Origin: Stegostoma tigrinum | Lineage: Eukaryota | DNA length: 64,000 nt | Assembly: GCF_030684315.1 (NCBI RefSeq) | Contig: NC_081387.1 | Span: 23,182,647-23,246,646 of the forward strand | Direction of reading: 5' to 3' | Shown: positions 14,336-60,497 of the stretch, one piece after another | Position numbering within the stretch: the stretch's first letter is position 1 | Layout of the letters: every line of letters starts with the position of its first letter | Translations under genes and position numbers: made by a program | The notes under the pieces: generated by a model | Databases searched by the model: none | What the model was told of the DNA's origin: nothing | What the model saw: only the letters and a program-made list of their open reading frames with translations

Positions 14336-14349
14336 CAAACACTATACTC

Positions 14350-22248: not shown

Positions 22249-22336
22249 ATGAGATCCTTCAATCACTTCTTGCCCATGATGCAAGGAAGACATTTGAGTA
22301 TTGTGCTGCTCCTTGGTTTTCACACTGTGCTGTCAG
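22249..22336 (+). CDS. BTN-like gene 1, signal-peptide exon (MRSFNHFLPMMQGRHLSIVLLLGFHTVLS; start may be ATG 22249, 22276 or 22279)
   Basis: ttttttgtttcag acceptor, hydrophobic core SIVLLLGF, CAG|gtaagc donor in phase 1 matching the IgV exon; resembles the paralog leader at 60440. Confidence 0.8.
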
Positions 22337-25300
22337 GTAAGCAAAAGAATTGAACTGCAAATTATTACTGACACTTCAGGAGCAGCATCTCTTTACCAGA
22401 TTAGCTAATTTAACATGAAGTTATTCACAATTAGTAAAGCGTTAAATTAGGGTACTTTTCATGGGGAAACTGACAGATCCCTCACCCTGTGTATTCTTCA
22501 GTCTGTTCTTTCTCAAAAATCTCATTTAATGGTGTCATACAATCTGCTCCAATTGCATTCAGCAGCATCTAATTGCACAACTTGATGGAGAGTAAGTTCC
22601 CAGGGAAGGCCATGGATGACGGTGTGCCTACACTAAACATGATTGTATCCTTTCTCTGATTAGATACCGAGCCTCTGCTGTGTCTTTCTAGTATTTTCTC
22701 GTTTCAGATTTCTATCAGTTGTGGGTTTTCTTTCTTCTCATTGTTTCTGCAGCTCAGGGGGTGAAAAAGCTGAAGAAAAATTACACCTGCCTTTTCTTGT
22801 GCTCCGAATTCCCTATTTCTGTCCTCTTTTTTTAATCCCATGAACACAACAAAGGCTGTATCAGCATCATCCAGCTTGAAAATTTCCTTCCCTCTTTATT
22901 CCATTCAGATGTTTCTCAAAACTTGCTTCCTTGACCAGGCTTTTGGGTTTCTGCCCGAATCTTGTTTCATGTGGCTCACTGTCACATCTACATTCTGGTA
23001 AGTTTTCTCCTCCAGAAAAAGCAAATTTAACAACAAAAGTTAATTGTACAGACAATTTCATACAAAACTCACCATGATTTAAATAAGCAAATAATCTGTT
23101 CATAGCATTTATTGAGTGAGGAGTGTTGCTGCAGCATTGGGAGATCTTTTTAAACATTTTTAAATAGTTTCATGGGATCTCTCACTCCCACTGGAACAGA
23201 CACACTACACTGTGGATTCAATGTCTGAAGAAAAAGATGTCACTTCCAACGATATAACACTCTCTCAGAACTCATTGAAGTTTCAGCTCATATTGTGTGC
23301 TAAATTATAAAAGTGGAATTCAAATGTCATAAAAAGCCAGCGTTCCATTGATTTTGTACATTCGTTCCGGACTCAACAATACCTTAATTTCAAATTGTCA
23401 TCCTTGTTTCAAATGCTTTAAATCCTCCCTGTGTCTGTAATCCCCTCCAACTTCACAACTAATGTTCCTCCTAATTTGTTTTCAGGTGTAGAGCAATTTT
23501 TAAAATTGTGTAGTCATGCATAGTTATAAAGTTAAAGGGACCAATTTTTGCTGTTTGGACACTTCGGGTTACTGTGCCAGTTAATGGGGGGAGTCGTGCC
23601 CACAACTTTCTGGGAGATCTGCACTAATCTGGTTCTGCTGTGTTTGATATCCCCAAAATGAATCGCGCCATATTGGTGGCTGTACCTTCAGGCACCCAGG
23701 TCCTAATCTGTGTGTTACCCAAGACCATTCTCTTGGCCACCTGCCCTAATCTGTCACATATGGGTCAGTGTCCAAGTTACATCTCGAACATTCGTGTGAA
23801 AGTCCGTGGGACATTCTTGCAGGATGTAATGTTATGAGGTGGAGGTTGATCCCTCCTCCCCCGAGAACTAAAAACGAAATACACAACAGGAGTACCCCGC
23901 CTCATCATCTGTCAAAGCAGTGTGAAAAGTGGTGTCACCTGTCTTTCAGCAGCTTCTAGTGGTTAAATTAAATAAATCCCTAACACTCACTTTACAATCA
24001 ACAAGTAACAATTTATTTATCTAACTCTTACCAGTGAACAGATGAACTAAACTATTAACAAACGGAATAAACGCCTTCTAACTAGTAACTATTCCTGACG
24101 AACAAGATTCTATTGACCTGATGTTCTCATAAAACAAATCCCGCTCATAGAAAATAAAAATGGAATTTAGCCCCTTGAAATTACAGCGAGGTTACGTGTT
24201 TTCTGGAATGTTGTGTGCCTTTTCCGATGATTCTTTAGTGGTGAGTATTAACTAGTTGTGCCTTTGGTACCTTTATTTTTAGTTAGTGCTTTCTCTAAGA
24301 CATAGAGAAAACTGTGAGAGCCAACAAGTCTCTCTTGAGAGCTGAGGACTGTTAACTCTGGCAGATGGCAGTCCTTGTTTTGTACCCTTGAAAACATATC
24401 AGTTTTTTACAATTGGATTCGTCCTATGTTGTCAAAGCCGTCAGATTTAAATTTAATTGTTTCTGGTACATAAGTGCCTCGTTATTGATTGGCTAAATTC
24501 AAAAATGTGTTGCTTTAGTAACAAAACTGCTGTTTGGTCTGCTGCCTGTATGGCCTTTCAGTACAGATAATTCAATTCAGGCGCTCTCTGTATACTTGCA
24601 AACTTTCAAGCTGCCACTCACAGACATCCATTTTTCAAAGAAAATGCACATCATTTTTTACAGGGACCACACAATGCTCCCCCCCGCCCCGTAGCATTTT
24701 ACAAACACGAAATTCTAACTTGCTGCCTCCCAATCCACAAGTGCTCTGCCCAGCTTCGCAACAATAAGCACATGCTGCTTTTGTTTAAAACCATGAACAA
24801 ACCTGAAGTGTATATGGAGAGCTTGGTTGCTCAGCAATAAAAGGATGAACTGCAGAATTCAGATTTCCAGCATCCACTGTAATTTGCCGTCGTGAAGTAA
24901 GAACACTGCTTCATTGTTCAGGGAGCTGCATTTCCTGCTTCTGCCCTCCTGGTGATCACTTACCATGGTGGAGCCAGAGTAGAATATATTAAGGGGGTCT
25001 TGAGTTGGGCTTGTGGAGAATGTGGCCCATCACTGTACACTATGATTCATTTCTTCTTGTGATTCATAAATTTGCCATTGAAATTTAGAAGACGAATAAT
25101 CCTTAACTTTTTTTCCCAAAAACCCTCGATAACCTTTGATGGAGAATTTAATTAACATCCCACCATTTTTTCACTCCATCCATCTCAGGTTCCTGGACAG
25201 AATTTCCCTTTTGTCACCCAATCTGTTTCTGGAAACTGTTTAATGAACTATTCCGTGTGTAAACAAGGGCACAGTTAAAGTTTCTTTTTAAAATCTTTGT

Positions 25301-31300: not shown

Positions 31301-34300
31301 GAGAACAAGAAGGAGAACAAGCACTGCTTCAGGATTTGAACCAGTAAATAATGCGACAAGGTGATATTGAAGATTCATTGTTGAAATTTATTGCGGAAGG
31401 AGTCCATTCAGTCCCTTGAGTCCACTCCATCCCTGTAACCCTGCATTTCCCATGGCTAAAGCACCTATCCTGCACAGAACACCTGGAGGAAACCCTTGCA
31501 GACATAGGGAGAATGTGTAAACTCCATACACAGTCACCTGAGGATGGAATTGAACTTAGGTCTCTGGCATTGTAAGCTAGCAGTGTTGACTATTGTGCCA
31601 CCGTGCTGACCAAACTGCTTGATAAGGAAGCAACCCTTCGCTGTCCCTGCTGTATTGCTGTTTGGGGAAGCTGGGCTCGCTGGGGTTGCCATACCTATAC
31701 TGGGCAGCTGAAACATTGTTGTGTCTGTGATAAATCCAGTCATGGTGCAGCTAACTACTGCATCACATGGACGTTCTGCAGGTCAGAAGGCCATCAACCA
31801 AAGGACTGCAGCCTGTATATTGGCCACTTCTCCAAGACCTGCCTAAAACACTGCGTCTGTTTTGCACAAGTCGCAAGAGAAAAGGAATATAGATACAAGG
31901 GCTCCTAGAGGCTGACAGCAGGGAATCTCTGTGTGCATCAGTCATCTCTCAGTAAAGCCCAGCTCCAGGAGCAGGGAATCCCTCAGTAAAGCCCATCTCC
32001 GGGAGCAGGGAATCCCTCAGTAAATCCCAGCTGCAGGATCAGGGAATCCTTCAGTAAACCCCAGCTCTGGGATGAGGGTATTTCTCAGTAAACCCAGCTC
32101 TGGGATTAGGGAATCTCTCAGTAAACCCCAGCGCCGGGAGCCGGGAATCTCTCAATAAACCCAGCTCCAGGATTAGGGAATCTCTCAGTAAACCTCAGCT
32201 CCAGGAACAGGGACTCTCTCAGTAAATCCCAGCTCCGGGATTAGAGAATCTCTCAGTAAACCCCAGCTCTGGGAGCAGGGAATCTCTTGATACATAATAA
32301 TCCATCCAGCAGAACAGTGCTATCTGTGTATCCTAGGAGGAATTAGAGACGGGTTGTGGAAAAATACAAGAGGAAGCTGTCGAAAGATGGTCAGTGGTGA
32401 GGAGAGTTTCCGGAAAGAGCTTAGCAATACTGGGGGATGATGTTTTTGGCGTTTGGCTGTGTGATCATGGATTGTAGCTGAATGGCACATCCTCTGCCTA
32501 TCGGAGGCGATTCCACTACACACCCTTTGGGCTGTGTTTCTGGATGTGTTTGATATTATCAGAAATGGAACTGAAAACAATAACATCACAGCGGCAGATG
32601 TTGATGAAGGGATTCAGTGAAGTTGAGATGAAGGAGTCGAGAAAGATTGAGAATAGGATAAAGGATCTGATTCAGATTCATTGTTATCCTTCTGGCTGAG
32701 AAACAGGGGACAGGCCTGGTGGTGTTGACATTGGCCATTTTAACATTATCACCAACAGTTAAATTATTCACACAGGCAAGGCAAGGATAGTTCTATATTA
32801 ATGCACAGAACAGTACAGTGCAGGAACAGACCCTTCGGCCCACTATGTCTGTGCTGACCATAATGCCACTCTAAACTAATCGTATCTGCCTGCACGTGGT
32901 CCATTTCCCTCTACTCCCTGCTTGTCCATGTGTCTGTCTGAACCCCTCCAAAAAGTTGCTATTTTGTCTAAGCATCTGCTTCTATCACCTCCCCTGGCAG
33001 CACAGTAACCTCCCACCCTCTTTGTAACAAATATGCCTCACACATCTCCTTTAAACTTTCCCCCTTCACCCTGAAGCTATGTCCCCTAGCATTTGACATT
33101 TCCAACCTGGGAAAATGACTCCAACTACCCACTTTATCCATGCCTCTCATAGTTTATCTACTTCTATCAGGTCTCCCGTCAGTTCTGATGCTCTACTGAA
33201 AATATTCCAAGTTTGTCCAACGTCTGTTTATTGCTAATACACACCAATCCAAGCAAAATGCTGGAAAACATTTTTTGCATCCTGTTCAAAAACACATCCT
33301 TCCTAACGTAGGACAACCAGAACTGCCCATTATACAACTGAGTTTCATGAGTGTTAGGACATTGTTGTTCTGTGTAGAAATCTAGGCTGTAAACTCATCT
33401 GCCTTACCTGTTAAACTGCTTGCATTAACATTAATACTATTAAGATCACCAGTCCCGCTGTGTTCATTAACCTGATCCTGCCTGCTCTTCCAATGAGACT
33501 GATGACTTAACCTCTACCTCTTCCGCAATCACTCCACATGGTGACCTACTGCCCACCCTCTGCCCCTCACCCCGCCACACTGGACTGAAATGACTACGTA
33601 CTGTTGAAATTAAACATTTAATAATTTAAAATGAATATAAGTTTGAATAAGTGACTTTATGCTAATTGCAGAGTTTGGACAGCGGCCTTGGGTTGATGTG
33701 GAGGAGAACAACAAAGGACTTTGTGTTGTGTGTCGATCAGACGGATGGTATCCTGAGCCACTGATACAGTGGGTAGATGGGAAAGGAGATGCGACAGTAC
33801 AGTCTGAAACAGAATTCATTCAGGACCCCACAGGCCTCATCACTGTCCAGAGTCGTATTAATGTCCAAAGTGATTCTGTGAACAAGTTTTCATGTTTCAT
33901 AGAAAACCAGTTATTGAGCAAAAGACGAGAGGCCCATCTCCAGATATCAGGTAGGTGTGTGTTTGGTAATCATTTGATGGGCGATATTTCTCCCCCCCCC
34001 CCCCCCTCCCCACCCCTGAAGACACTAACTCAGACTGGGTGTGAATCCACGAGCACTGATTTGTCTCTGGACAATACCAAGAGGCAGCTTTTCATATTTG
34101 AAGCTGAAACATTGAGAAGTGAGTAGACTATCCACAGCACAGCTTCAGCTGGGCCTGATGTGTACTTACCCAATGTCCACATTTCATATTCCAGCTGTGG
34201 TCACTGGATAGAGATTAGGACCAAGGACACTAAGTACTGTGCTTTTGGCTGACTGTTATTAAGAGAGACAAATGTTTATTCATAACAGCACCTGAAATCC

Positions 34301-37300
34301 AAATGAATCTCAAGTTCTTTCAACAAAAATTCTTAATAGCAATGGTATTATTTACTTGTATGTCTTGGGAAGGAATCAGTAGCTGAGATTATTCCTGAAG
34401 GTTGATGAAATTATGATACTTTGAAGAAAATCCCAAATATTTGTTTCATAGGTTTGTGTCTTGCAGATCAAATACTGATTCTGTTCTTTTTAATCTTAGA
34501 TGAGTTCTTCCCCAGAGTCAATGCTTGGCTTGTATGTTTCTTGGTGTTTCTTGGCCTTGTGATTGCGGCTATTACTATTGATGTAATAGTCCACAGAAAA
34601 GAAGATGAAAAGATTAAAGGTAGGAGCAAAATAGACATTTAAAGCTTGACATTTGTGGACGTACATTAAGGTTGAAATGAATTATAATTGTAACAGTTTC
34701 TGAATTATCTGAAAATTATTCTGAAATGGAAAGAATGTAATATGAATGTGAAATTTTAATTTTTTTTAGCTTTCAGGATAATCCCTTGCTTAGCATGCTG
34801 CTTCTCTGCAAAGGAAGAAAAGTTATGTTAACTATCTCTGAGACAGAATAAGCCCTTTATTAAAGTTTCATTTTGGGACATGAGACTAAATGGTTAGACC
34901 AGCATTTATTGCCCATCTCTAGTTGCAGTTGAGAAGGTGGTGTTGAGATGTTTTCATGGTCCGCTGCACTCTGTGTAATATGGGTACATTCACAGTGTTT
35001 TATTTCTGTCACAGTGTGATATAACTGAGTGGCTTCCCAGGCCATCTCAGAAGGCAGTTCAAAGTCAAACACTTTATTATGGGCCTGTCTGACCAATTTC
35101 CTTTCCTGAAGGATATTAGTGGAACAGTCAGTAACTTCATTCCCTCCACTATCTAAACTCAAATTGTGATTCAATCAGTGGTTGACCCCTTCAAACAAAT
35201 TCGCTCTGAGGATGGAGTCAGTCAGGGATGGAGTGAGAAATCTGCAGGATGTGTGTGTGTGAACTTGCTGAGCAGTGAATTGGGGAGCAAGGCATGTAGG
35301 ATTGTGCGATGTACTCTGTAAATAAATGTTATTGGTTGTAATAAATTGGGACAGCAACTCAAAATTGTCAGAAAAGTCAGATAGGTACAGCCTCCAAAGA
35401 ACATGATACTTTTTGGAAAATTAATGCCGTTCAGTACAGCTACAGAAGATAGATAGGGTACGATATGTAGAAAGGTTAAGACTGTTTTACCATGTGAATG
35501 AAATGGCGCAGTAGGTGAAAGAAAGTGATTTTGTTAACTGCATATTGGGCACAGATTCCAGTCCGATTCGAAACTTAACATCCCTGAAAGTCCCTGATAT
35601 CGAAATATTTTCAAAGATTGTAGGCCTTACTCAAAGGACACTGTCACCCTAAGCCCCCAATGTGAATTTAGAACATTACCACTTTAATTCATGGGAGAGC
35701 CCCTCATGGTAAGAATCAAGGAGATTATGGAGCATTGTGATTTTGGACCAACTTTAAATAGGAGATTGCCATGCAATCATCCAAAAGAAGCTTAGTAAAA
35801 ATTGTAAATGGATTTTAGAAGGTTGCTGGAGATTAGTTTAGGCATGGAGAGTGTGGAGAAGGGCGAGCAGGAGATACAAAGTGCTTTGAGAAGCACAGCC
35901 CACCAGTTCGGATGGGAAACTGCAAGCAACAGTGGTGGTGTCCGGAGTGAAGGTGCTGGTGAAAGCAGGGAATGGATCCAGGAACCGGAATAGCCAGAGT
36001 GTACAGAAGGTTAAACCAACAGCCTTGGACAGGCCCTGAGGGTGCAGAGTGTTTCCAGTGTGGGGGAGGCCAACCTCCATAGCAGTGTTTTCAAGAAGGA
36101 GCTCACCTTCTGATGTTGAAGAGCACTGGGACCAGGCTGACGACATGTGTAGGTTGGGGGTGAGCAGTGGCTGGTGGGCATTTACATGAATAGGCTCAAC
36201 AGTGGCTCCAGTGAGGTACTGTCAGCAATGCCCTCAGCCCAGTGTCTGGTCAGGGCCCATGTTTAATGTGGTGTGATTAGCTCCAAGAGATCAAATTAAA
36301 TTAACCAGAGACTTTTAGCATCAGAGAGGGTGAAGGGGGTCACACAATCCAGAAGCTATCCCTAGGTTTTTCAGAGTTAGGCCTGTGCTCTGTGTGTTAT
36401 TGGAGAAGTTGGAGATGGAGTTGGAGAGAATGAAAAGACCTTGGCATCATTCACCCTGTGTGATTTTCTGAATGGGCAGCACCCATTGTGCCAGGAGTGT
36501 AACTGGATAAGTTCATTCCCATCTGTGGGGATCACAAGCTGGTGGCTATGATGTGGCTGGATAAGCATCTCGTTTCCAACAGGAAGATCGATATGGGAAC
36601 GCAGCTGGGGCGGGGGGTGGGGGTGGTCAGACATTCTCAGAGTTGGACATGACTCATGCCGAGCAGCAGCTGGAGCTGTCAGAGCCTCACGGGAATATGT
36701 GACTATTAACACCCACAAGGAGTTGTATCAATTTACTCACTTGTACTGTCTTCCAAAGAACCACGGAGAGCTTACTGCAAGACTTGCCAGTTATTGTTGT
36801 GTCTTGGATAATGTATCAACTAACCTCTTGTAAAAGAGCATTTGTTGATTTTGGGAGAAATATGAAGGAGTTCCCAGGAAGCAGGAGTGGACCTTAATAG
36901 AGAAGCACCTTCCAGGTTAATGAGGTGGTTTGCTTGGGTTATCAGGTGGATGCACAGGGTTTGCACCCCCATGGAGGACAAGGTGAGAACAATCAGGGAG
37001 ACACTGGCCCCTCGGAATATCTCTGAACTCAAAACCTTTCTAGGAATGGTTAAGTCCTGTGGGTGATTCCTCCCAAGCCTTTCCACAATGTTAGCGCCAC
37101 GACAAAAATAACGAAAGAAACAACAGGGCCTGGGTCGGACCACAAACTGAGGCTTTTAAACAGGTCCAGAAGGTGCTTCAATTATTGTGTTTCCTGGTTT
37201 GCTTCAACCAGCAAGATATTACTGACATCCTCATATGGTGTTGGGGCAGTTTTATCCCACACAATGGATAATGGGGCAGATAGACCTGTGGGAAATGCAG

Positions 37301-40300
37301 CAAAAATACTGTCGGACGCAGAGAAGAGCTATTTGTGAATAAGAGAGACGACAGAGCAGTTATTTGTGGCAACAAAATGTTCCACCAATATCTATACTGG
37401 AGACATTTCATCATGTGGTGACAGACCACAAGCCACTGTTGGGAATATAAGGTGATTTGACCAATAGCTTTGGCCTTTGAACATTGTCCTGAGACCTCAA
37501 TAGCCAATGCTGATGCCCTCATCATGTTCCCTGACCAGAGATAGGCACAGGCCCCACAGTGTCGGAAGAGATGGGAATGGCCATGAATTTTCAAACTACT
37601 TCATCTGTTTTAGCTCAACAAAGTAAGTACTGGGCTAACAGAGACCCACAATTCTCAAAGGAGAAGCAGATAATAGTGTGTGGCTGGCAAAACAAAAGAT
37701 TTTTTAAAAGAAATTAAACCTTACAAGTTGGGGAAAAGTGAGCTTCGTTGTGAGCATGGTATTGTCCTTTGGGGATTGAAGGCTTTTATTCTTGGGTCGG
37801 AAGAAATTTGTTCCTGAAATATTTACAAAAGACGTATCCGGGTGTATTTAAAATGAATAAAATGGTTTCAGGAAGCTCTGTTGGCAGTCTAGCATTGAAG
37901 CAGCAGTTAAAGATGCGGTAAAGTGCTGTGATCAGTGCTAATTTCAGCAGACGTTACCCGTCCCAAGCCCACAATTGTGAGGTGAGTGACAGTCCTTGAT
38001 ATCAAGGCTGCATTCGACCAAGTGTGGCATCGGGCTGCTGTCACAAAATTGGAATCAATGGGCAAACTGACTGCTGATTGGAGTCATACCTGACGCATAG
38101 GAAGATGGTCATGGTTTGTGGAGGTCAGTCAGTTCCAGAACATTTCTGCAGGATTTCCTGAAGGTAGTGTCCTTGACCCAACCATTTTCAACTGCTGCAT
38201 CAATGATCAAGCAATTGACCAGAGGAGATCCAATCAGTGATGAATATTGTTGAAATAGCAAGGCCTTATGAATTGGAAAGATTAAAATCCATATGTCCAA
38301 GTGATAAAGCATGGATAAAGAGGACAGCTAAACAACTGAAGATCATGAATATGTACCAGAAATATAATCCCATCACTGCCTATGTTTCACCCCAATGTGC
38401 ATTAAGTGATGTATTTAACTGAACAGTTTTGTTGAAATTATATCATGATGAGAACGTCTAGTGAAAGATGAAAAACATCATTTGTAAATTCTGACAGATC
38501 TTCAGATTGAGATTTAGAATGTTAAAATGTTGTTCTGATCCCAGCTGATGGTTTTCTGGACAAGTCTGAACTGTGTTCTGTTTGTGTCCCGATGTTGCTG
38601 CTATCGGGTGCGGCGGTAGCTGCAGAATCTCACTCACTAACACGTTCCTGTGTTCTTGTCTTTCAGAACTACAGGAATTCCTCACTTTGGAAGGTAAGTT
38701 ATTTCAGAACCATGTCAGGATTCTGATTTACAGACACTGAGTAAGAAAATTCCAGTTTCACTTCATGGGAATCCAGGAATTCTGAACAAAGAGGATGGAA
38801 TTTTATAAGGGTCTGAGCGCTGTGGTCTGTGGTGAGAAATTGATGGAATTGTGTGAGGTGTCCATTGAGACCCATTTCAATGTCACTGCCTGGCATTGAG
38901 GTGGGATTCTCACAAAGCTGCAATGTGTGTTGCCTATGAAAGGGGAATATTGCGAATGAACGACCATATTAACTGCATACCTCACCTCATTAATATACAG
39001 CCTTCTATCGCACCAAACCTGTCAGACAGGCAGGATACTGAGAATTCTCGACATGGAGATCCAAACATGTACCTGCTGACTTCAGCTCACTGCTCACTCC
39101 AAAGGGATCTCAATGTTGGAAATTAGACACCAACCTCTCAGGGCATGCCGCATGTAACCCATGTCCATGGACATTGGCATCCAACATGTGCCAGCCTTGA
39201 AATACCCTCATGGCACATCTCCAAACATTGTAAAACTGCTGCTTGGACACTGTCCACTCAGAGGCACACACCCAGCTCATGGACTGGGCGAAACTGCATC
39301 GCTGGGATGTTTACTTGTTCTTTTAACCCTCACTCACTCTCAGCTTATCTGGATATTAGCAGCATTCCTGCTTTTTCATTAACATTTACTCCTTGTCCCT
39401 CAGCCAGAGATACAATGCTCACAGTTCTGCTGTTTAACCGTTTAGTGGAGACACGGAGCCAAGAAGCTGGTCAGATTGTCAGCAGAACACAGTCAAGCCA
39501 AGGGAGGTAGCCTTCAGCCAGAGGATATGGTCAGTCAGTAGCATTACCCCTCATTAGCTGTGAGGGATCAACTATCAGCTAGTACCCCACCCAGCCATAC
39601 GGACACTTACTGACTAGTGGGGACTGTTTTCCTCCTGAATGGGAGAGAGGTAGTTGTTAATGGAGACGAAAGTGCTCTTACTGTTGGTGTAGGTGTGAAG
39701 GTGTCCTGAGGAAATGTGTTGGCAGCACAGAGAACAAACAGGGTTTGTGGTGTCAGGTGTTGGTGTGGGTGATGGAGAGTGAGTGAAGATGTTCCAGTCC
39801 GTGGTAAGTGTGGTAAAGCATGAGCCTTGGTGGGAGGTGGGTGCAGCAGCAGAGACAGAGTGAGTGTGTGGTCATGGAGAGAAGATGGTGGATCACATGG
39901 TGGTGGAGAGGAGAATGTCGCTGATGTGCTGGCAGTCCTCCAGACGCTGAGACTGTACTCACCCATGTGCCACCCTCTGACCAGGCAGGGACTGGCATCA
40001 TGACCATCTCGGCTGGTTCTGGGGGAAGAGGGTATCTACACCACCCCGTCCAGCGGGACCGTCCGGTTCCTCTCTGCTCCATCTGGGGAAGATGGCAGGA
40101 ACTGTATGGGGCAGCTGCAGGCTGACAGACCTGTCTGGCTGCACAACAGCTTTGCAGAGATGGCACCGCTGCCAGGGATCAGGTCAGTTCTGAGATGTCC
40201 CAGCAGTGGCGAGTTGCTTCAGAAATGGTGGGTGGTAGGATGGGGCTAGAACTGAATGTGAGGCTCGTAGTGACATGGTCTGTTGTTAATGGGGTGAACG

Positions 40301-43300
40301 ACATGGAGAGAAATAGTCCATGAAACTTGATGAAACTGATTGTTAACCAAAAAAGGTTAGATTCAGCCCAATGTTCGACAATCCGATTTGCTTTTCCCTG
40401 ATTAATCTCCGTCAATGGCCGAGATGATTTCACATGCCTGTGAACTTCACACCCTGTTATAGTTAAACAACATCCCTCAGCAGTCCTGACTGGGTGTGCA
40501 GTGAGTGAGATGTTGCTCCTTCATCTTTGGGACTGGGTGGCTTAATGGGGCCAATCCTGTCTTTTTGCGTTTTGAAACATTTTTGTACATTGGATACAAA
40601 TATGTTGTATCGCAGAACCATCAAGTTTTTTTTTGTTTATCATTCTCCAATATTATGAAATGCTCTTTCACTGTTAGCTGTTGATTATCACGTGATTAGA
40701 TATGGTCCTTTTCTGGTGCAGATAGTTTGATACAGTGCTTCTTTAATTAAAATTTTTGTTATCTTTATGTCATTATTCTTTACTATTTCTTGAAAGATAT
40801 GCTTCGAGTGAGAGGACAGAATACAGAATGAAAGAGCGCAATGTCCTGGATCAGTGAAAACAACAAACTAATTTCATCATTATTCTGTAATCTTTAATCT
40901 CTTGTATCATTTTATTTACTTTGCATGTTTTCTCTTTTTTTAAAACCTCTGATTTTTGTTTCTTTGGAGAATGAGTTTAGAGAGGTTTTGCTGATTGGTT
41001 ACTCTGTCCAAGGTAACAACTGAGCAGAATGCTACTTGATCTCACTTCCTCCCCAGTTAGCCAATGAAAAGCAGGAAGAATCTCCACACGACAATCAGAA
41101 TCTGACTGTCTGTCCAAGGGACATGTGACCACAAAGAGCCCCTTTCAAACATGCACGAAACAGGTGGAAGTAGCTTGATGGATAGGTTCGGCTGTCAGAG
41201 TTTTCAGCTCCCGATGTGTCACTGGGACAGAGTTGGAATGTAATAATCATGGGCCGATCATGAGATAGAAATACTGTCAACACTTCCCAATATTCCAGTC
41301 CCAGTTTCCGATCAATGTCAGTCTTTACATCAATGGGATAATTATTCTGAAATGAACAGAGCATTTGAACAAAAAGAGAACCTAAACTGCTTAGGCAGCA
41401 TGTTTGGAGAGAGAAACCAAGATAATGTTTCAGGTCAGTGACCTTCGGGAAAAAGAGACGTATCAGGTCTTGAGCAAATGCTGGCCTGAGGTCAGGGGAA
41501 GGGACAGTGGGGAAGGGGGAAGTGCGAAAGGAATGAAAGGTTCATGACAGGGTGGAAAGCAAAAGTGATTCAGTAATGAAATGGACAATGATGTAAAGCA
41601 TCATTGGGATTGTGCACTGGAAAACAAGTCCCTTTATTCCTGGAGTCATCACAAATGTTCAAGATGTTTAAAAGTATGCCAAGTTCCCCAGTTTACCAAT
41701 CTTTCAGACCAAGATTGATAAAAAGCACAGAACAGGTTTCTGTACATAAGTAAATAGACTGTAGCTGCTGGTCAAACATTCTGAACCATTGGCATGGGGG
41801 AGATGATGGCTTAGTGGCAGTATTAGTGCACTGTTAATCCAGAGACCCAGGAAATGTTCTGGGGACCCAGGTTTGAATCCCACCAGACTGTGGATGGTGG
41901 CAGATGGTGGGGCTTGAATGCAATAAAAAAAATCTGAAACTAAGAGTCTAATGATGTCCATGAATCCATAGTCAGAAAAACCTAGTGGGGTTTTCAGTGG
42001 GGAACATCCTAAAGGAAACTGCTTTCCTTATCCGGTCAGACCTACAGTAACGTATTGACTCTTAACGGCTCGCTGGGCAATTAGCAATGGGCAATAAATC
42101 AGCTACACCCTCATCCCATGAATGAATAAAAAACATGAATAGCTCAAATCGCATAATAAACTGCCTTGTATACCTTTCCTCTCTCTCCAAAAACACACAG
42201 AAAAAGAAAACATGGGTGTTCATGTTCACAGAGAGCTGCTGACTCTTGTGCTATCTGAACACTGCTCTTGATCGTCCTTCTCCAGATGCTTTCACTGGTT
42301 TGCAGGAGACCCAGATTGTACAGGTCACACTTATAAAAGATCCCTGACTTGTTTGTTAAAGCCGTAACTTACAGAAAGTGCTGAAGGAAAAATAAACAAA
42401 TACTCTTCAGGCTGGAAATGAGTTTTGTTGCAGGAAACGGAGAGAACTTCTGAGCTGATGAAGATCCGTTGATGTCTCTGTATCTTATTCAAAGTCCCAA
42501 GCTACATCTGGTTCTGCATCTTTTCCTGCTGCTTGAACCAGTGACTGTGTAAACAGTGCTTACAGTCAGATGGTTGATCGGTGCTGCAAGAACAGTAAAT
42601 GTTGGAGATCTGAAATAAAAACAGAAAGTGCTGGAGGAACTCAGCAGGTCTGGAAAAGTCTGTGGAGAGAGTGGAAAACAAAATGAATGTCACATTCATG
42701 ATGACTCTTCTTCAGAATGTGTGTGTTCCATAGAATGGCAATATCAAACTCGAATGGTGCGCTTTGTCCCTCTCGACACAAACGATGCCAAACGTGCTGA
42801 ATTTCGCTTATAGTTCCTGTTTTTGTATGAGATGAGACTAAAGGGAAATAGTAGGATCATCGCCAACTGCGACTGTCTAAAAAAAGTGATTTTCAATATT
42901 CTTGTTCCACACAGGTTTCAACAAACTGGAAATAAATCGTGGTAAGTACAGAACTAACATACAATTCAATAAAACTAACCTGAACTGACAATAGATATTG
43001 AAGAATACTTCTCATTGGAAATCTTATTTAACTCGGCTTTTCATTTCTGCTGAAAAATTTTATTTCATATGAACGTAGAAGTTACCAATATGTCAATATT
43101 TTGTCTTCATATCGTGCATTTCTAAATAGATTTCATGAAGCTATGTGTATTTAACCATATATTCACATTTATAATTCCATGGTACTGCAGGAATGTTTTA
43201 TTTGCACAGTGTTTGTGGATTGAATTCACTGATACATTCAGGCTTCAGGACATGGTGAGGTCAAGACGCTGTGACATATTGGCCTTGGTTCCTGATGATG

Positions 43301-49300: not shown

Positions 49301-50659
49301 TTGGAAAGATGGCAATCAAACTGCACAACTCTCCCCCTCCCCTGTCCTGAACCCCCTCATCCCAGTCACATTCCTCACTGCCCCCTCAATTTCCCAATGG
49401 ATCCCTGCACCACCCTCAACCCCAGTTTGTTCTCTCACTGTCCTGATGCCTTATTGACTCTGTCCATCTCCCCTCAGCCAGTCCCCTGCCCTGCCCTCCC
49501 CTTCACCAATACGAGAGATTACCCCCTTCCCAGTTTCCCCCACAAGATCCCTCCCACGCTTCAGATACGAAACAAGACCACTCCAATCCCAGGGAGACTC
49601 CAATCCCAGTCTTCCCATGAACCCCTCTGCTCTCCATCAGCCTGGACACCAATCCCACAGCAAACCTGCTCCCCCTTCACTTTCCCCAATCCCACACGTG
49701 ACTTGCTAAGTCCTGCCCGAACCCATGACAACTTCCCAATCCCCCAGTGAATCCCATTCCCTTACACCCCATGAGTGCCCTGCCCATTGCCCCCTGCATT
49801 ACCCCTCACACTCCACCTGATGCCCCCATAAGACAACATCCCCTCCTTAGGACCTTCAGTGAGTCCCCTCACAATCCTTGATCCTCAAATAACACCCAAG
49901 CCCCTGACATCCTCACCCTCTCCCCAACAGACACACACACATTTTCCCCCAACTCAAACATTCCTACCAACCCCCCCCTCCTCACACATACACACACAGA
50001 GACATGCACACGCACGCACACACATATCCCCCCAACGTGAACATTCCCACCATCCCCCTCCCTCCTATACACACAGACACTGACACATACCCACAGAGTG
50101 TCCCTAATTCCCTGTATTTTCTCTCCCAGTCTCTGTGACCCTGGATGTGGAAACAGCGAATCCCTGGCTCGAGGTGTCTGAGGATCTGAAGAGTTTGAGA
50201 TGGACCGGGACCTGGAGGGATCTCCCTGACACCGGGAAGAGGTTTACACACTGGGAGTGTGCCCTGGGATCAGAGGGATTCACATCAGGGAGACATTACT
50301 GGGAGGTGGAGGTGGTGGAGAATCGGCGCTGGAGTCTGGGAGTAGCCTCAGAGTCTGTGGAGAGGAAGAGAGGGGTCAGTCTGATCCCGGGGAATGGATT
50401 CTGGATCATTGGGCGGGAATGGGATCAGTTTTATATAAACAACACTCAATCCCCTCTCCCTGTCGGTCAGGTCCCCGGGAGGGTGGGAGTTTATCTCAGT
50501 TATGAGTCTGGGACAGTTTCATTTTACAACGTGGACACCATGTCCCATCTCCACACCTTCACTGGGAATAAATTCACTGGGAAACTTTATCCTTTCTTCT
50601 GGAGTTGGGATTTAAACCAGTTTCTGAGAATCTGCACCGAAGGGGCGGGGGCTCCCTGA
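22249..50659 (+). CDS. Butyrophilin/BTN-like type I membrane protein (SP-IgV-IgC-TM-short coiled coil-B30.2), spliced, 7 coding exons, ~472 aa: join(22249..22336,25453..25800,33672..33950,34500..34619,38667..38693,42915..42941,50130..50659)
   Basis: All exons have AG/GT boundaries and phase-1 junctions and concatenate to an open frame (1419 nt including TGA). Domain order and the 348-nt IgV exon are typical of butyrophilins. Orthology to a named BTN cannot be assigned from sequence alone. Confidence 0.9.
25453..25800 (+). CDS. BTN-like gene 1, IgV exon
   Basis: 348 nt; EIFHVFVPDYPITVSVGEDVVLDC...LEVRW...YQGRTELFKDELPRGNASLKLKKIEVSDEGIYTC is the BTN/MOG-type V-set motif; ttttgccag acceptor, GCAG|gttggt donor. 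Confidence 0.95.
27900..28190 (-). mobile_element. tRNA-derived SINE (HE1-like, CR1-type tail) nested in the Gypsy pol
   Basis: Minus strand begins ggcagcacggtgtctcagtggttagcactg...gggttcgattcc (A/B boxes); same family at 31380-31610 and 63205-63525. Confidence 0.85.
30439..30580. mobile_element. Mini inverted Penelope tail inserted in the Gypsy 3'LTR
   Basis: aggctgacactttgggcct...aggcccgaaacgtcagcct; TSD tgaccctcatagaa/tgaacctcacagaa. Confidence 0.8.
31380..31610 (-). mobile_element. tRNA-derived SINE (HE1-like), decayed
   Basis: Similarity to 27900-28190. Confidence 0.7.
31943..32287. repeat. Minisatellite, ~31-32-bp unit (cagggaatctctcagtaaaccccagctccggga-g), ~11 copies
   Basis: Read directly. 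Confidence 0.92.
32800..33330 (-). mobile_element. Decayed CR1 3' end
   Basis: MRGMDKV...FPRLEMSNARGHSF. Confidence 0.8.
33672..33950 (+). CDS. BTN-like gene 1, IgC (C2/B7-type) exon
   Basis: 279 nt; EFGQRPWV...VCRSDGWYPEPLIQW...NKFSCFIENQLLSKRREAHLQIS; ttgcag acceptor, CAG|gtaggt donor. Confidence 0.93.
34500..34619 (+). CDS. BTN-like gene 1, transmembrane exon
   Basis: 120 nt; DEFFPRVNAWLVCFLVFLGLVIAAITIDVIVHRKEDEKIK (FFP...W juxtamembrane motif typical of BTN); polypyrimidine tract plus tag acceptor, AAG|gtagga donor. Confidence 0.92.
34860..35110 (-). mobile_element. SINE/L2-tail fragment
   Basis: ccagcatttattgcccatc...; reverse complement of the 57705 family tail. Confidence 0.6.
35400..37975 (+). 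mobile_element. Heavily decayed Gypsy internal region (gag/RT/RNaseH/integrase remnants)
   Basis: YVTINTHKELYQFT, APRNISELKTFLGMV, SSYGVGAVLSH, TDHKPLLG motifs. Confidence 0.75.
37985..38210 (+). mobile_element. L2/CR1-group LINE RT fragment (family of 3940-5165)
   Basis: LDIKAAFDQVWH; GSVLDPTIFNCCIND. Confidence 0.7.
38667..38693 (+). CDS. BTN-like gene 1, 27-nt juxtamembrane micro-exon (ELQEFLTLE)
   Basis: Strong acceptor tgttcttgtctttcag, AAG|gtaagt donor, phase 1-1, heptad-like content. Confidence 0.8.
38793..40455. mobile_element. Probable decayed PIF/Harbinger DNA transposon (Myb/SANT-like remnant on minus strand)
   Basis: Minus-strand LDGVV.DTLFP...AWSE...VSTVS..WRT resembles a Myb/SANT-like domain; terminal gg..gaattt / aacttcacaccc are weak TIR-like ends. 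Confidence 0.4.
41795..42135 (+). mobile_element. tRNA-headed SINE with L2-like tail
   Basis: tggcttagtgg...ggtttgaatccc boxes; catcccatgaatgaataaaaaa tail; same family as 57705. Confidence 0.75.
42915..42941 (+). CDS. BTN-like gene 1, 27-nt juxtamembrane micro-exon (GFNKLEINR)
   Basis: ttcttgttccacacag acceptor, GTG|gtaagt donor, phase 1-1; joins to give INR|VSVTLD at the start of B30.2. Confidence 0.8.
44655..45900. mobile_element. Cluster of Penelope fragments (tails, minus-strand RT N-terminus ~45250-45550, plus-strand GIY-YIG end ~45680-45815) with a CR1 fragment
   Basis: Minus-strand FYLLPKIHKQACTGRPIIAA; LIFCSGTMQPRDFNIEFNNF. Confidence 0.7.
46630..47360 (+). mobile_element. 5'-truncated CR1 LINE (relatively young)
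   Basis: 196-aa open frame AVKKANGILAFITRG...HLEYCVQFWSP...; gaagggccgaatggcctactcc tail. Confidence 0.9.
47890..48725. mobile_element. Penelope fragment (minus, ~47890-48290) followed by decayed CR1 3' end (plus)
   Basis: Similarity to 6600-6930; LIEGYKILKGVDKVD...TRGHRY. Confidence 0.65.
49320..50100. repeat. C-rich low-complexity intron segment with (CA)n before the B30.2 exon
   Basis: Strong C/A skew with many C runs. Confidence 0.7.
50130..50659 (+). CDS. BTN-like gene 1, terminal B30.2 (PRY-SPRY) exon
   Basis: VTLDVETANPWL...RF...ALGSEGFTSGRHYWEVEV...WSLGVA...RVGVYLSYESGTVSFYN...LYPFF; strong acceptor tattttctctcccag; TGA at 50657. Confidence 0.96.
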
Positions 50660-50910: not shown

Positions 50911-50962
50911 AATAAATCAGACAGAAATGTAAATGTCAGGATGAAAATAAAAAATAAATAAA
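50911..50962 (+). terminator. Cluster of AATAAA polyadenylation signals ending the gene 1 3'UTR
   Basis: AATAAA at 50911 and several overlapping copies at ~50946-50962, followed by GT-rich ttgtgtctgt, ~250-300 nt after the stop. Confidence 0.65.
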
Positions 50963-51522: not shown

Positions 51523-51719
51523 TATTACACAGTGAAATCCTGGGGTTGGTGTCAAACAGAAATAACATCAGAAAATGCTGCCAATCCCCAGCAGGTCAGT
51601 CAGCATCTGTGTACAGAGAACCAGAAGGAACAGGGTTCAATACTGGGCATGGTAGGAATCAGAAATTTAAAAAAAAAACAAGAGTCCAGTGACCCTTCTT
51701 CAGGACTGAAAGTCTTTGG

Positions 51720-52125
51720 TCAGATTGTGGGAAAGTTAGAGATGAGTCTGAAACCCTCTTTAATTTCAGGAAGGGCTCATTCCCAGTGGGATCAGGTGGA
51801 GTTTATTCCCGCTGAAAGATCCCAATCAAATCCAAGGAGTTGAACGGGGAGCGGCTGGGGATTGTGCAGTGAAAAGGTGAAACCTTTCTCCAGTGTCTCT
51901 GATCAGCTGCACAGAGCCTGGAGCTGGTTCCTGTCAGTATAAGGGAACAGGAGGGAGAGGCAATGTGTTACATTCACCTCTCAGGGTCAGACACAGCGAC
52001 TGGAAAGGGAGGCGGAAGTGAAAAGGAGGAACAGAGTGAGGGCCATGAGATGGAACATGACCCACTGGGGTTTCTGTTTAAAGGCAAATAATTCAATCCC
52101 GGAGACAGTTGTGTGTTTTCATCCC
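51720..52125 (+). repeat. Third, partial copy of the promoter block (matches ~15403-15805)
   Basis: Direct alignment by eye; lacks the ISRE part, donor changed to ag|atgagt, keeps GGAAGTGAAA at 52014-52023. Confidence 0.9.
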
Positions 52126-56999: not shown

Positions 57000-58226
57000 A
57001 ATAATTTCATTCTATTGAGCCCCTTTTGTCAAAAACACTGCTTCGCATGTTACTTTGTCAAAAGAGTTGTCAGCACTTTGAAACTTAATACATGCTTCTC
57101 TCTCACATGACTTCCCAGCACAGACTGAAAAACAAAGTCAGTCTGGAAAGGTCTACTCCTGTATCATGAGGGTTTTGGGGAAGGTTAGATAGGAAGAAAC
57201 TGTCCCAGTTGGTGGAAGGATCAACATCAAAATTGAGAATCAGTCGTAGGCAAAAAAAAATGGGGAACTTGAGGGAAAATGCTTAGACACAGTGTGGGTG
57301 GTTAAGTTCTGAAATTCAGTGCCTGACGGTGTGGTGGAGGCAGGTACATTCAAAGGATCTATGGGGGATGATTGGGATTGGGGGTGTCACAAGATAAACT
57401 TCTCCCGTGGAGAGCAGCACATATGTGAAATGGTCCTGCACTGTAACCATTCTGTGACCCTGTGCCTTACTGCAGATGTGGTTGCTGTAGGTCACACAGG
57501 TAATCACCAGCACTCACATACTACAGCTCCAACACATCACCTCCCTGCTGTCTCTATTGTGCTTTATTTAACTAATGAGGTTGCAAGTTTAGACATATCT
57601 CTCAACAATATTTTGAAATCATAAGAAGTAGTAAATTTGACATAATGCTCAAACCACCCACTACTCTTGGCAGTTATTGCCCCAGTAAGTTAATACCTGG
57701 ACATAAGAGGCAATGGCCTAATTGCTATTCTCACTGCACTGTTAAGCCAGAGGCCTAGATTAATGTTCAGGAAACTTGCGTTCAAATCCCGCCATGGCAG
57801 ATGGTGGAAGTTGAATTCAATTTTAAAAACCTAGAATTAAACGTCTCATGATGACCATGTATCCATTGCCAATTGTCAGAAAAACCCACGTGGTTCACTA
57901 ATGTCCTTTAGGGAAGGATACTGCCACCCTTACCTGGTCTGGACTACATTTGACTCCAGGCCCACAGCAATGTGGTTGACTCTTAACTGCCCTCTGGGCA
58001 TTTAGGGATGGGCAATAAATGCTGCCCTTACCAACAATGCGCACAAGCCATGAATGAATAAGAAAGTAACACATGCTCGAGGTCGTACATTTTCATACTG
58101 TTTCATTTGCAGTAACTTACCAAATCAGAATTTTAATTTTTCTATTTGAAGTAAAATTGTTTCAATAAAGAAAGAAATCACTTAGTTATTTCTCTCTGAC
58201 AACACAATAACATCTCTTACTGAGTG
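57000..58226 (+). repeat. Upstream segmental-duplication block, copy B, interrupted by a SINE at ~57705-58065
   Basis: Collinear with 14350-15180. Confidence 0.9.
57705..58065 (+). mobile_element. tRNA-headed SINE inserted only in copy B of the duplicated block
   Basis: A/B-box-like head, L2-like tail; absent at the collinear position (~15030) in copy A. Confidence 0.8.
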
Positions 58227-58385: not shown

Positions 58386-58527
58386 NNNNNNNNNNNNNNN
58401 NNNNNNNNNNNNNNNNNNNNNNNNNNNNNNNNNNNNNNNNNNNNNNNNNNNNNNNNNNNNNNNNNNNNNNNNNNNNNNNNNNNNNNNNNNNNNNNNNNNN
58501 NNNNNNNNNNNNNNNNNNNNNNNNNNN
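58386..58527. other. Assembly gap (N run)
   Basis: Read directly. Confidence 0.99.
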
Positions 58528-58899: not shown

Positions 58900-59240
58900 G
58901 CTGTGAATTTCTCTTGCAGATGTAGTGAATGCTGCCTGACAAGCTGTTCCATCGAGCAGAAGAAGCAGAAGCTTAAACACATGTATCAATAGGTTCAAGA
59001 ATAACTTCTTCCCTGCTGATATTGGACTGATGCATGGCCGTTTCCAAATAATGTTGGTGTTATTAATGTCACTGTTGCTTCATGCACCTCTTGTGCAGTG
59101 TATTCTGTTTCACTTGTCGCAGCACCCGATGATCTGTATTTCCTTGCTTACTTTGACTTCTCTGTTCTGCTCGCAATCTAAGCTTTTCACTGTACTTAGG
59201 TAGATGTGACAACAGTAAATCAAAATCAATCAATCAAGAT
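58900..59240 (+). mobile_element. LINE 3' end (Rex1-like)
   Basis: RFKNNFFPA motif; (aatc)n tail. Confidence 0.55.
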
Positions 59241-59392
59241 TTAATGCTGTGGAGTGACAAGTGGTTCCCAAACTCTGCCCCAATACAGGTCCCAGCGCAA
59301 AGGCTGGAATTCAAAGCGTCGCCTGGAAAATAATTCTGGTCCCACAGTGAGATGTATTCACACAAACTTCACTTTATCCATTAAATACATGC

Positions 59393-60205
59393 CCGGAGGT
59401 GATGCATTAATTTTAATAACATTAATGATTTTCGGTGAGTTACAGTTGAAAGAGCAACTTGCCCGCAGTGACACATTTGTTCGAAGGAGGGAGCAAAAGC
59501 CAAAGAGCGAATTCAGTGAAAACGAAAGTAAATGTTTTCAGGGAGGGGCTGTCGTTGTGAATGTCTCCATTTTTTACACATTTGTCCGAGAAAAGGCGGA
59601 AAATGTTCGATCAGATTGTGGGAAAGTAAGAGGTGAGTCTGAAATCCTCTTTAATTTCAGGAAGGGCTCATTCCCAGTGGGATCGGGTGGATTTTAGTCC
59701 CGCTGAAAGATCCCAATCAAATCCAAGGAGTTGAACGGGGAGCCGCTGGGGATTGTGCAGTGAAAAGGTGAAACCTTTCTCCAATGTCTCTGATCAGCTG
59801 CACAGAGCCTGGAGCTGGTTCCTGTCAGTATAAGGGAACAGGAGGGAGAGGCAATGTGTAACATTCACTTCTCAGGGTCAGACACAGCGACTGGAAAGGG
59901 AGACGGAAGTGAAAAGGAGGAACAGAGTGAGGGCCATGAGATGGAACATGACCCATTGGGGTTTCTGTTTAAAGGCAAATAATTCAATCCTGGAGACAGT
60001 TGTCACGCTTCATTTCCTGACATAAACTTTAATTGAAGAGTTTCCCTTGTGCTGAGTCCATTCTCCGATTCCATTCTTTCCCATTTCGGGTTTTCTGCCT
60101 CCACCATCGAGAGCAGTGAGTCCAGCTGCTTGGACCCTCAGGTCCGGAATTCTCTCCCTCCCTCAATCCGTCAATTCCTCTCCACTTTCCTCCGCCTCCC
60201 TTCGG
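59393..60205 (+). promoter_or_regulatory. Putative promoter/first-exon block of gene 2 (copy B): ISRE 59515-59529, donor at 59633, GGAAGTGAAA 59905-59914
   Basis: Near-identical to 15186-15990 (offset 44207); ~200 nt upstream of the leader-exon acceptor. Confidence 0.6.
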
Positions 60206-60409
60206 ATGAAAGGGATGAAATTTAAAATTTGATGTAATTTAAAGAAAAAATAATTACACCTTTAGGAATATCAAAGAATTGCGTTAATCTGGACAGTAGA
60301 ATATGTCCAGGAGGTTTGTGATACATGGCGTATTGAACAATGAAAGGTTTATACTCTGAAACAAAGATTGAAGGCACTGAATGACAGCTGTATTTTGTTT
60401 GTGTATCAG

Positions 60410-60497
60410 GCCTGGTTATTCTGCTGAGACCCCACAAAGATGGAAGGAGTTCACCTCATCCTGCTTTTGCTGTTTGGGATTCCATGCTCTGTGTATG
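60410..60497 (+). CDS. Signal-peptide exon of a second, probably paralogous BTN-like gene (ATG 60440; MEGVHLILLLLFGIPCSVY); rest of gene outside window
   Basis: ttttgtttgtgtatcag acceptor, AAAGATGG Kozak, hydrophobic leader, phase-1 ATG|gtaagg donor; similar to MQGRHLSIVLLLGF of gene 1; downstream of the same duplicated promoter block. Confidence 0.75.

What the first reader, a model, noticed from the sequence alone, without database searches (positions are those of the whole stretch)
22249..60497. Tandem cluster of full-architecture butyrophilin genes (IgV-IgC-TM-B30.2) in a probable cartilaginous fish
Seen: a clean 7-exon ORF with BTN domain order, then a second homologous leader exon behind a duplicated promoter. 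Established: mammalian BTN/BTNL proteins work as heteromeric pairs from tandem loci (BTN2A1/BTN3A1, BTNL3/BTNL8) and are ligands for gamma-delta TCRs; sharks have gamma-delta T cells. Inference: this may be an early-diverging jawed-vertebrate BTN pair, co-regulated and possibly co-assembling. The host taxon is itself inferred from repeat content.
Basis: partly seen in the sequence, partly recalled or inferred. Interest (0 to 1): 0.75.

Follow-up and report, generated by a model that had tools for sequence, protein, structure and literature searches.

The report
Shark butyrophilins share sensor with TRIMs
This zebra shark gene is a real, already-annotated butyrophilin whose inside-the-cell binding domain is about 90% identical to those of a TRIM ubiquitin ligase and of distantly related butyrophilins of the same species, likely because that exon is repeatedly exchanged among neighbours, so it likely works as a variable intracellular sensor, while pairing with the adjacent butyrophilin is only weakly predicted and a gamma-delta T-cell role is untested.

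Summary
The 7-exon, 472-aa IgV-IgC-TM-B30.2 gene is real and 100% identical to zebra shark RefSeq XP_059495481. The 60410 exon is the leader of a second, full-architecture butyrophilin class (19/19). Shark butyrophilins are already reported (PMC12841164), so that part is ordinary. The shared domain varies most at positions equivalent to the BTN3A1 ligand pocket, whose basic residues are absent. Both genes carry a 604-base first-exon block differing at one base. Best reading: a butyrophilin with an exchangeable, TRIM-type recognition domain, possibly paired with a stable partner (weak structural support, 0.53 against 0.00). Junctions were not checked on reads. Gamma-delta TCR binding is untested.

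The parts
15188..15425 (+). Likely first exon / 5' block of gene 1 (splice donor GTGAGT at 15426); start not mapped
   Evidence: RefSeq model P0043 (isoform X1 of gene 1) begins at 15218 and continues into IgV; 239 of 239 bases identical to 59395-59633
14343..14956 (.). Older homology block upstream of the 5' block, paired with 56992-57634
   Evidence: 82.4% over 647 columns
22249..22336 (+). Gene 1 (class A1) leader exon, signal peptide
   Evidence: 29 of 29 residues match P0003/P0044
25453..25800 (+). Gene 1 IgV exon (C53-C127, W68, sequon N109)
   Evidence: Pfam V-set 1.7e-14
33672..33950 (+). Gene 1 IgC exon (C166-C220)
   Evidence: Pfam PF22705 butyrophilin IgC 7.7e-20
34500..34619 (+). 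Gene 1 transmembrane exon
   Evidence: hydropathy 2.81 at residue 251
38667..38693 (+). Gene 1 juxtamembrane micro-exon 1 (27 nt)
   Evidence: conserved in class A
42915..42941 (+). Gene 1 juxtamembrane micro-exon 2 (27 nt)
   Evidence: conserved in class A
50130..50659 (+). Gene 1 terminal B30.2 (PRY-SPRY) exon, member of the pool shared with TRIM and class D genes
   Evidence: AATAAA at 50911, 50946, 50953
51708..52113 (+). Third, partial copy of the 5' block, splice donor lost
   Evidence: 95.8% over 406 columns; donor G is A at 51742
59392..60203 (+). 5' block of gene 2: likely first exon to 59632 plus start of intron 1
   Evidence: 603 of 604 bases identical to the gene 1 copy, then about 86%
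60410..60497 (+). Gene 2 (class C) leader exon, ATG at 60440; rest of gene beyond the window
   Evidence: 19 of 19 residues match P0067/68/81-84

Best explanation
Gene 1 is an intact zebra shark butyrophilin whose B30.2 domain is 87-91% identical to those of a TRIM ligase and of other butyrophilin classes of the same species, likely through repeated exchange of the terminal exon, and which would therefore act as a membrane-anchored intracellular sensor with a variable binding face, possibly as a heterodimer with the adjacent class C butyrophilin. Steps: (shown) architecture and identity to RefSeq; ectodomain classes older than the shark-ray split; B30.2 of classes A1 and D mixed with TRIM B30.2 by taxon, class C B30.2 not; variation concentrated on the ligand face; no phosphoantigen pocket; near-identical first exon on both genes. 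(Inferred) gene conversion or unequal crossing-over among neighbours as the cause; selection for ligand diversity; co-regulation through the shared 5' block. (Predicted, weak) A1-C dimer. (Untested) ligand, downstream receptor, any gamma-delta TCR contact.
For:: IgV+IgC tree of 104 rows gives classes A (99*), C (92) and D (99*), each with sharks and batoids. B30.2 tree of 119 rows; class C 18 of 18 in one clade (99*); 82 rows of A1, D and TRIM mixed (94) and sorted by taxon; gene 1 sits with Stegostoma D genes and TRIM P0185 (93). AU tests on 111 rows reject an A1 clade (p 2e-6) and a TRIM clade (p 5e-41); nearest B30.2 is a same-species TRIM or other class for 13 of 15 A1 and 16 of 23 D genes, 0 of 15 C and 0 of 3 A2 (rows with no same-species comparator skipped); gene 1 is 87-91% to same-species D/TRIM whose ectodomains are 40-41% alike or absent, 76-78% to its Hemiscyllium and Chiloscyllium orthologues., same 35 genes: class changes IgV 1, IgC 1, B30.2 12; order changes 15, 14, 9 (9 is the minimum); 12 of 15 informative site pairs among 8 Stegostoma copies show all four combinations. 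P0003 equals gene 1 through residue 306 and differs only in the last exon; the tails of P0003 and TRIM P0185 read like gene 1's sequence past its stop in another frame. Five myliobatiform TRIMs on other contigs form a TRIM-only clade (97*), while three on the butyrophilin-bearing contig mix with class D. 7 of 8 pocket-equivalent positions are among the 12 most variable of 170 columns (cut-off chosen after seeing the data; 6 of 8 among 11 at a cut of 2.5 bits). No TRIM exon lies in the window (282 proteins) and no gap between micro-exon 2 and the B30.2 exon. Precedent: B30.2 conversion across zebrafish NLR groups (PMC4852459) and finTRIM-NLR shuffling (PMC2657112). A1+C ectodomain-TM-linker complex: weak support, 0.53 against best of 3 controls 0.00, runs agree in at least 97% of contacts, partner pLDDT at least 82; the mark was reached by 51 of 78 solved and 2 of 108 mismatched pairs, but at 0.60 or under by only 5 of the 78 and by all 4 mismatches that passed.
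Against: All relatives are protein models, mostly from one annotation pipeline; no DNA-level conversion tract or dN/dS was computed, so selection is not shown and four-combination sites could be recurrent change. The junction into the B30.2 exon was not seen on reads; skate Logan contigs of class A1 stop or run into the intron after the micro-exons (5 of 5). The TRIM set is the top of one search (120 of 1277 hits listed), trees are quick or FastTree with many open forks. 2 of 15 A1 genes (P0016, P0017) and 7 of 23 D genes do not follow the pattern; four D genes keep an older B30.2. The one Stegostoma TRIM (P0185) looks partly degenerate. The complex score may come from solved BTN2A1/3A1 and BTNL3/8 structures (listed) and was not held against homodimers or other classes; linkers differ by 11 residues between A1 and C. 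Near-identical copies could in part be false duplications of the assembly.
Confidence: 0.55

Rival explanations
1. One reading: genes 1 and 2 form an obligate heterodimer that is a ligand for shark gamma-delta TCRs, like BTN2A1/3A1 or BTNL3/8.
For: Tandem classes kept since before the shark-ray split; near-identical first exon; weak complex support 0.53 against 0.00 with the calibration counts given above; heteromers are the rule in mammals (PMC5798315, passages); same chromosome as MHC-I in three elasmobranchs (PMC12841164).
Against: No orthology to the mammalian pairs shown; none of the five alignable basic pocket residues kept in gene 1, at most 3 of 5 in any of 107 elasmobranch B30.2 domains; four classes and at least 15 models, so the partner is not defined; butyrophilins persist in squamates without the gamma locus. 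Compatible with the best explanation, but adds an untested receptor.
Confidence: 0.25
2. The B30.2 sharing is a neutral by-product of conversion among neighbouring similar exons; the protein works through its ectodomain as a B7-like co-inhibitory or co-stimulatory ligand.
For: Proximity predicts mixing (off-contig TRIMs stay apart); the 5' non-coding block is homogenised too; surface loops vary most in any family.
Against: Class C on the same contig is not mixed (0 of 15); pure homogenisation would flatten all columns, yet the scaffold is near-invariant while ligand-face columns reach 2.4-3.2 bits; duplicates with identical ectodomains differ at pocket-equivalent positions 365, 378, 380 and 454.
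Confidence: 0.25
3. Annotation artefact: class A1 ends after the micro-exons, like BTN3A2, and the B30.2 exon is the remnant of a lost TRIM gene that gene models have attached.
For: Fused TRIM-BTN models exist in relatives (P0178, P0187); class A1 Logan contigs lack B30.2 (5 of 5); no read-level junction here.
Against: No RING, B-box or coiled-coil exon in the window; the exon is intact, in phase, with poly(A) signals; 17 A1 models from 13 species carry a pool-type B30.2 at the same junction; class C spliced full-length proteins lie on 1.9-2.0 kb Logan contigs (P0075; P0270 on 19 contigs).
Confidence: 0.1
4. Gene 1 acts alone or as a homodimer as a cell-intrinsic restriction factor, capturing viral or other proteins at membranes with its TRIM-type B30.2, with no T-cell receptor involved.
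For: Shared recognition domain with E3 ligases; one GAAANNGAAA motif in each 5' block (14 matches of the motif in the whole window, so weak); human BTN3A3 restricting avian influenza is recalled, only a search listing was seen.
Against: IgV and IgC are strongly conserved within class, which points to a fixed extracellular partner; no functional data.
Confidence: 0.2

Closest known systems
RefSeq XP_059495481-483, butyrophilin subfamily 1 member A1-like, Stegostoma tigrinum
   Same: Identical protein, 472 of 472.
   Different: Automatic name only; no classes, B30.2 sharing or function attached.
Human BTN3A1/BTN2A1/BTN3A2 and BTNL3/BTNL8
   Same: IgV-IgC-TM-short linker-B30.2; best PDB hits of both genes are BTN3A1/3A3 (E 6.5e-84, 2.1e-93); tandem paralogues.
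   Different: Separate clade; linker from IgC to B30.2 58 aa against about 100 in BTN3A1; basic pocket H351, H378, K393, R418, R469 (PMC4303140) reads W, S, S, Q, W and R412 falls in a gap; B30.2 shared with TRIMs.
Zebrafish NLR-B30.2 genes and finTRIMs (PMC4852459, PMC2657112)
   Same: B30.2 homogenised across groups whose other domains stay distinct; variation on the binding loops; proximity matters.
   Different: There the NLR B30.2 domains are closer to each other than to TRIMs (55-65% similar to group A finTRIM); here a membrane Ig receptor and E3 ligases share domains at 79-92% within each species, implying continuing exchange across protein architectures.
Cartilaginous-fish butyrophilins in Marenco et al. 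2026 (PMC12841164)
   Same: Presence in sharks and rays, lineage-specific duplication, MHC-I linkage in Hemiscyllium, Carcharodon and Hypanus.
   Different: In the parts read (1-3 of 4, main text through methods) no zebra shark, no per-domain trees, no TRIM comparison; its Figure S2 tree is a picture I could not read.
Elasmobranch 'zinc-binding protein A33-like / nuclear factor 7-like' TRIMs
   Same: B30.2 domain, 89% with P0185.
   Different: [quoted passage not shown]

Membership tests
Butyrophilin (BTN/BTNL) | Signal peptide, B7-type IgV then IgC | tested here: met
Butyrophilin (BTN/BTNL) | Single TM, short linker from small exons, C-terminal B30.2 | tested here: met
   genomic model and RefSeq identity, not reads
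Butyrophilin (BTN/BTNL) | IgV closer to BTN/MOG than to other B7 members | tested here: inconclusive
   bits: BTNL8 86, MOG 82-85, BTN3 73-77, BTN2A1 69-71, VTCN1 68, CD276 63-67 per domain, PD-L1 42-46; HHLA2 not in the 60 shown of 137; no tree with named B7 outgroups was built
Butyrophilin (BTN/BTNL) | MHC linkage | not testable with these tools
   no genome held; reported for three other elasmobranchs
Phosphoantigen-sensing BTN3A1 type | Basic pocket H351, H378, K393, R412, R418, R469 | tested here: not met
   none kept in gene 1 or in P0067
Heteromeric BTN/BTNL pairs | IgC-dependent heterodimer with a paralogue | tested here: inconclusive
   weak support, 0.53 against 0.00; like complexes are solved; no homodimer control
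Heteromeric BTN/BTNL pairs | Binding of a gamma-delta TCR V-gamma domain | not testable with these tools
   needs shark TCR reagents
Orthologue of a mammalian BTN/BTNL gene | Groups with that gene in ectodomain trees | tested here: not met
   elasmobranch rows form one group (SH-aLRT 90, quick tree) apart from 23 teleost and tetrapod rows; only two mammalian rows, both long
TRIM (class IV) E3 ligase | RING, B-box, coiled coil | tested here: not met
   none in the window; only the B30.2 is shared
B30.2 receptor families under conversion and positive selection (NLR-B30.2, finTRIM) | B30.2 tree discordant with N-terminal domain tree | tested here: met
B30.2 receptor families under conversion and positive selection (NLR-B30.2, finTRIM) | dN/dS above 1 on binding loops | not testable with these tools
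   only proteins of relatives were at hand; variability is clustered there

The most novel reading that the evidence does not exclude
For some 250-300 million years (age recalled) sharks and rays have run one pool of pathogen-recognition B30.2 exons shared by cytosolic TRIM ligases and surface butyrophilins: a specificity won by a TRIM is copied onto a butyrophilin, which pairs with a fixed class C chain under a common promoter and reports the intracellular ligand inside-out to lymphocytes such as gamma-delta T cells. Phosphoantigen sensing by BTN3A1 would then be one frozen case of an ancestrally variable system.
Probability: 0.2. Interest if true: 0.85.

Novelty: new variant of a known kind. 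Interest (0 to 1): 0.52.

Why it matters
What butyrophilins did before mammals, and what their B30.2 domains bind outside BTN3A1, is open. A fixed class beside classes whose B30.2 is continually traded with TRIM ligases gives a concrete hypothesis, natural test pairs (P0044 and P0003: same outside, different pocket) and a warning that whole-protein butyrophilin trees in sharks mix two histories. The bare presence of shark butyrophilins is not news.

Tried and rejected
Whole-genome work: none held, so gene order beyond the window, gene 2's body, MHC synteny and DNA-level conversion tests stay open. Run search: no RNA holder listed (22 rows, 18 guessed RNA with shares 0.10-0.12); no reads were laid, so the junctions are unchecked on reads. 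First exon coordinates were off by one base at three exons and were corrected. The search of 50% representatives with the IgV exon was swamped by multi-Ig proteins and gave no B7 outgroups; 8 of them looked up were fish or skate butyrophilin-like or unnamed models. The careful ectodomain tree did not finish; the quick tree is reported. The bacterial promoter scan does not apply and found nothing. Rejected: the 5' block as an ordinary dispersed repeat (its three copies are the three most similar pairs of 16 self-matches of 200 bases or more, and two lie upstream of leader exons; a locus-restricted repeat is not excluded); a phosphoantigen sensor; a hidden TRIM or third butyrophilin gene in the window (other hits were single-query matches to repeat-derived parts of mis-built models). 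Literature: searches listed no paper on TRIM-butyrophilin B30.2 exchange in sharks; Suurvali et al. 2022 (Immunogenetics 74:129), which could cover it, is not held. The Greenland shark preprint's one mention concerns rockfish; the bamboo shark single-cell paper names btnl2 in one T-cell cluster only.
Full report
Observation. The seven exons named under parts join to a 1419-nt frame of 472 aa, every intron GT-AG and phase 1. Pfam gives V-set, butyrophilin IgC, PRY and SPRY. The protein is identical to P0044, RefSeq XP_059495481-483 of Stegostoma tigrinum, which fixes the host as the zebra shark. The exon at 60410-60497 matches 19 of 19 residues the start of P0067/68/81-84, full-architecture butyrophilins of the same species; at least four near-identical loci of this type exist by accession blocks, differing at 2-5 residues, so which one continues from the window is not fixed. 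Only gene 1 is whole in the window; tblastn of 282 stored proteins found no further butyrophilin or TRIM exon.

The 5' block. 15185-15987 and 59392-60203 are 96.9% alike over 812 columns, on top of an older 82% block further upstream. The core differs at 1 of 604 bases and holds a donor at 15426 / 59633; RefSeq isoform X1 of gene 1 (P0043) starts inside it. Genes 1 and 2 have ectodomains only 42% alike, so the near-identity is recent; conversion or capture of a first exon and promoter is inferred. A third copy at 51708-52113 lacks the donor. Co-regulation is plausible and unshown; multi-mapping reads could have placed the exon in the model.

Family. Three homologue searches gave 253 stored proteins with the cluster look-up. 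An IgV+IgC tree of 104 distinct rows (quick tree) puts the elasmobranch genes in one group (90) with classes A (A1 with gene 1; A2), C (gene 2) and D; A1, C and D each hold sharks and batoids, so the classes predate their split. Accession blocks give at least 15 butyrophilin models on the one 31.9-Mb Stegostoma contig: 3 A1, 1 A2, 5 C, 6 D (a count by inference). By PDB search both genes are nearest BTN3A; for IgV alone the margin over VTCN1 and CD276 is modest, so membership rests on the full architecture.

The unexpected part. Gene 1's B30.2 is 89% identical to a Stegostoma RING-B-box TRIM (P0185) and 87-91% to class D butyrophilins, but 76-78% to its own orthologues in Hemiscyllium and Chiloscyllium. 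In a B30.2 tree of 119 rows (75 butyrophilins, 44 single-RING TRIMs under 560 aa; fused models left out) class C is one clade (99*), while A1, 21 of 25 D and all TRIM rows form one group (94) sorted by taxon. AU tests on 111 rows (eight long outgroup rows dropped, simple model) reject clades of A1 (p 2e-6) and of TRIM (p 5e-41). The nearest B30.2 is a same-species TRIM or other class for 13 of 15 A1, 16 of 23 D, 0 of 15 C and 0 of 3 A2 genes. On the same 35 A1 and D genes (five D rows dropped: four with the older B30.2 and P0049) class needs 1, 1 and 12 changes on IgV, IgC and B30.2 trees, and order 15, 14 and 9, the minimum (FastTree). The switch falls at the last exon: P0003 equals gene 1 through residue 306, and the tails of P0003 and P0185 read like gene 1's sequence past its stop in another frame. 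TRIMs whose longest contig differs from that of the butyrophilins stay in a TRIM-only clade (5 rows, 97*), those on the same contig mix; contig length is only a proxy for place. I infer continuing exchange of the terminal exon among neighbours, as argued for zebrafish NLR-B30.2 groups (PMC4852459, passages) and, as an older single event, finTRIM-NLR (PMC2657112, passages).

Binding face. In the 82 pool rows the scaffold is near-invariant and 12 of 170 columns reach 2.35 bits or more. Mapping BTN3A1 by the alignment, the pocket residues H351, H378, K393, R418, R469 (PMC4303140, passage) and W350, Y352, W391 (PMC7348870, passage) fall on residues 338, 365, 380, 403, 454, 337, 339, 378; 7 of these 8 are among the 12 (hypergeometric 9e-9; the cut-off was set after seeing the data and rows are related, so read it as descriptive). 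Gene 1 keeps none of the basic residues, and no elasmobranch row of 107 keeps more than 3 of 5. So this is not a phosphoantigen sensor; the same face appears to be diversified. Selection is inferred, not measured.

Pairing. Mammalian butyrophilins work as IgC-dependent heteromers (PMC5798315, passages). ESMFold2 on gene 1 residues 30-297 with P0067 residues 21-299, without alignments, gave weak support: 0.53 against 0.00 for the best of 3 controls, runs agreeing in at least 97% of contacts, partner pLDDT at least 82; the mark was reached by 51 of 78 solved and 2 of 108 mismatched pairs, but at 0.60 or under by only 5 of the 78 and all 4 passing mismatches. Like complexes are solved, so this shows likeness, not that these two bind or prefer each other.

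Against and open. No reads were laid on the junctions. Skate Logan contigs carry spliced full-length class C (P0075; P0270 on 19 contigs) but class A1 only up to the micro-exons, two reading on into the last intron; this may be assembly breakage at a repeated exon or true B30.2-less isoforms. Relatives are gene models; TRIM sampling is the top 120 of 1277 hits; the one Stegostoma TRIM looks partly degenerate; copies may include false duplications.

Known and new. PMC12841164 (parts 1-3 of 4 read; Figure S2 is a picture and was not seen) already reports butyrophilins in all jawed vertebrates tested, lineage-specific duplication, MHC-I linkage in three elasmobranchs and persistence in squamates without the TCR gamma locus. 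PMC11788884 and PMC13262535 (passages) date the family to gnathostomes. PMC8813856 and PMC10445537 (passages) note TRIM and butyrophilin genes side by side in bird MHC regions and their shared C-terminal domain. Searches listed nothing on B30.2 exchange between shark TRIMs and butyrophilins; the 2022 review by Suurvali and colleagues could not be read and may bear on this.

Verdict. The finding of value is a butyrophilin cluster with a fixed class and classes whose recognition exon is shared with TRIM ligases across sharks and rays: a new variant of a known kind, interest 0.52.

Noticed in passing
window 34500-34619 (residue 266): An aspartate near the inner end of the TM is kept in class A (D in 15 of 20, N in 2, 3 not parsed); a candidate retention or pairing signal.
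   Followed up: partly
P0005, P0039, P0079, P0101: Four class D genes keep an older B30.2 outside the pool (98*) while others with similar ectodomains carry the pool type: direct sign of exon replacement.
   Followed up: partly
P0081-P0084, P0123, P0028, P0110 and others: Many models skip the TM exon, predicting non-membrane IgV-IgC-B30.2 isoforms; P0018 skips IgC.
   Followed up: no
P0280, P0282 (skate Logan contigs): Class A1 transcripts that read into the intron after micro-exon 2, giving a B30.2-less product like BTN3A2.
   Followed up: no
window 15311 and 59518: One ISRE-like GAAANNGAAA motif in each 5' block (14 matches on both strands of the window) and an ETS-like motif at 15697, 59904, 52013; weak.
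   Followed up: partly
window 51708-52113: Orphan third copy of the 5' block 1 kb after gene 1, donor lost, no exon found behind it; maybe the scar of a deleted gene.
   Followed up: partly
P0009 (Hemiscyllium), P0004, P0178, P0187, P0255: Fused gene models (A1 then class C IgC; TRIM with BTN) suggest same-strand interspersion of classes and TRIMs in relatives.
   Followed up: no
window 54206-55339, 28354-28740, 37054-37335, 7061-7474: Retroelement remnants: RT (RVT_1), RT and RNase H of LTR type, and a GIY-YIG (Penelope-like) piece within inverted repeats at about 5900-7900.
   Followed up: partly
window 31887-32321; 13659-13989; 58386-58527: 34-base minisatellite in intron 2 region and two assembly gaps, neither inside the coding span's last introns.
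   Followed up: no
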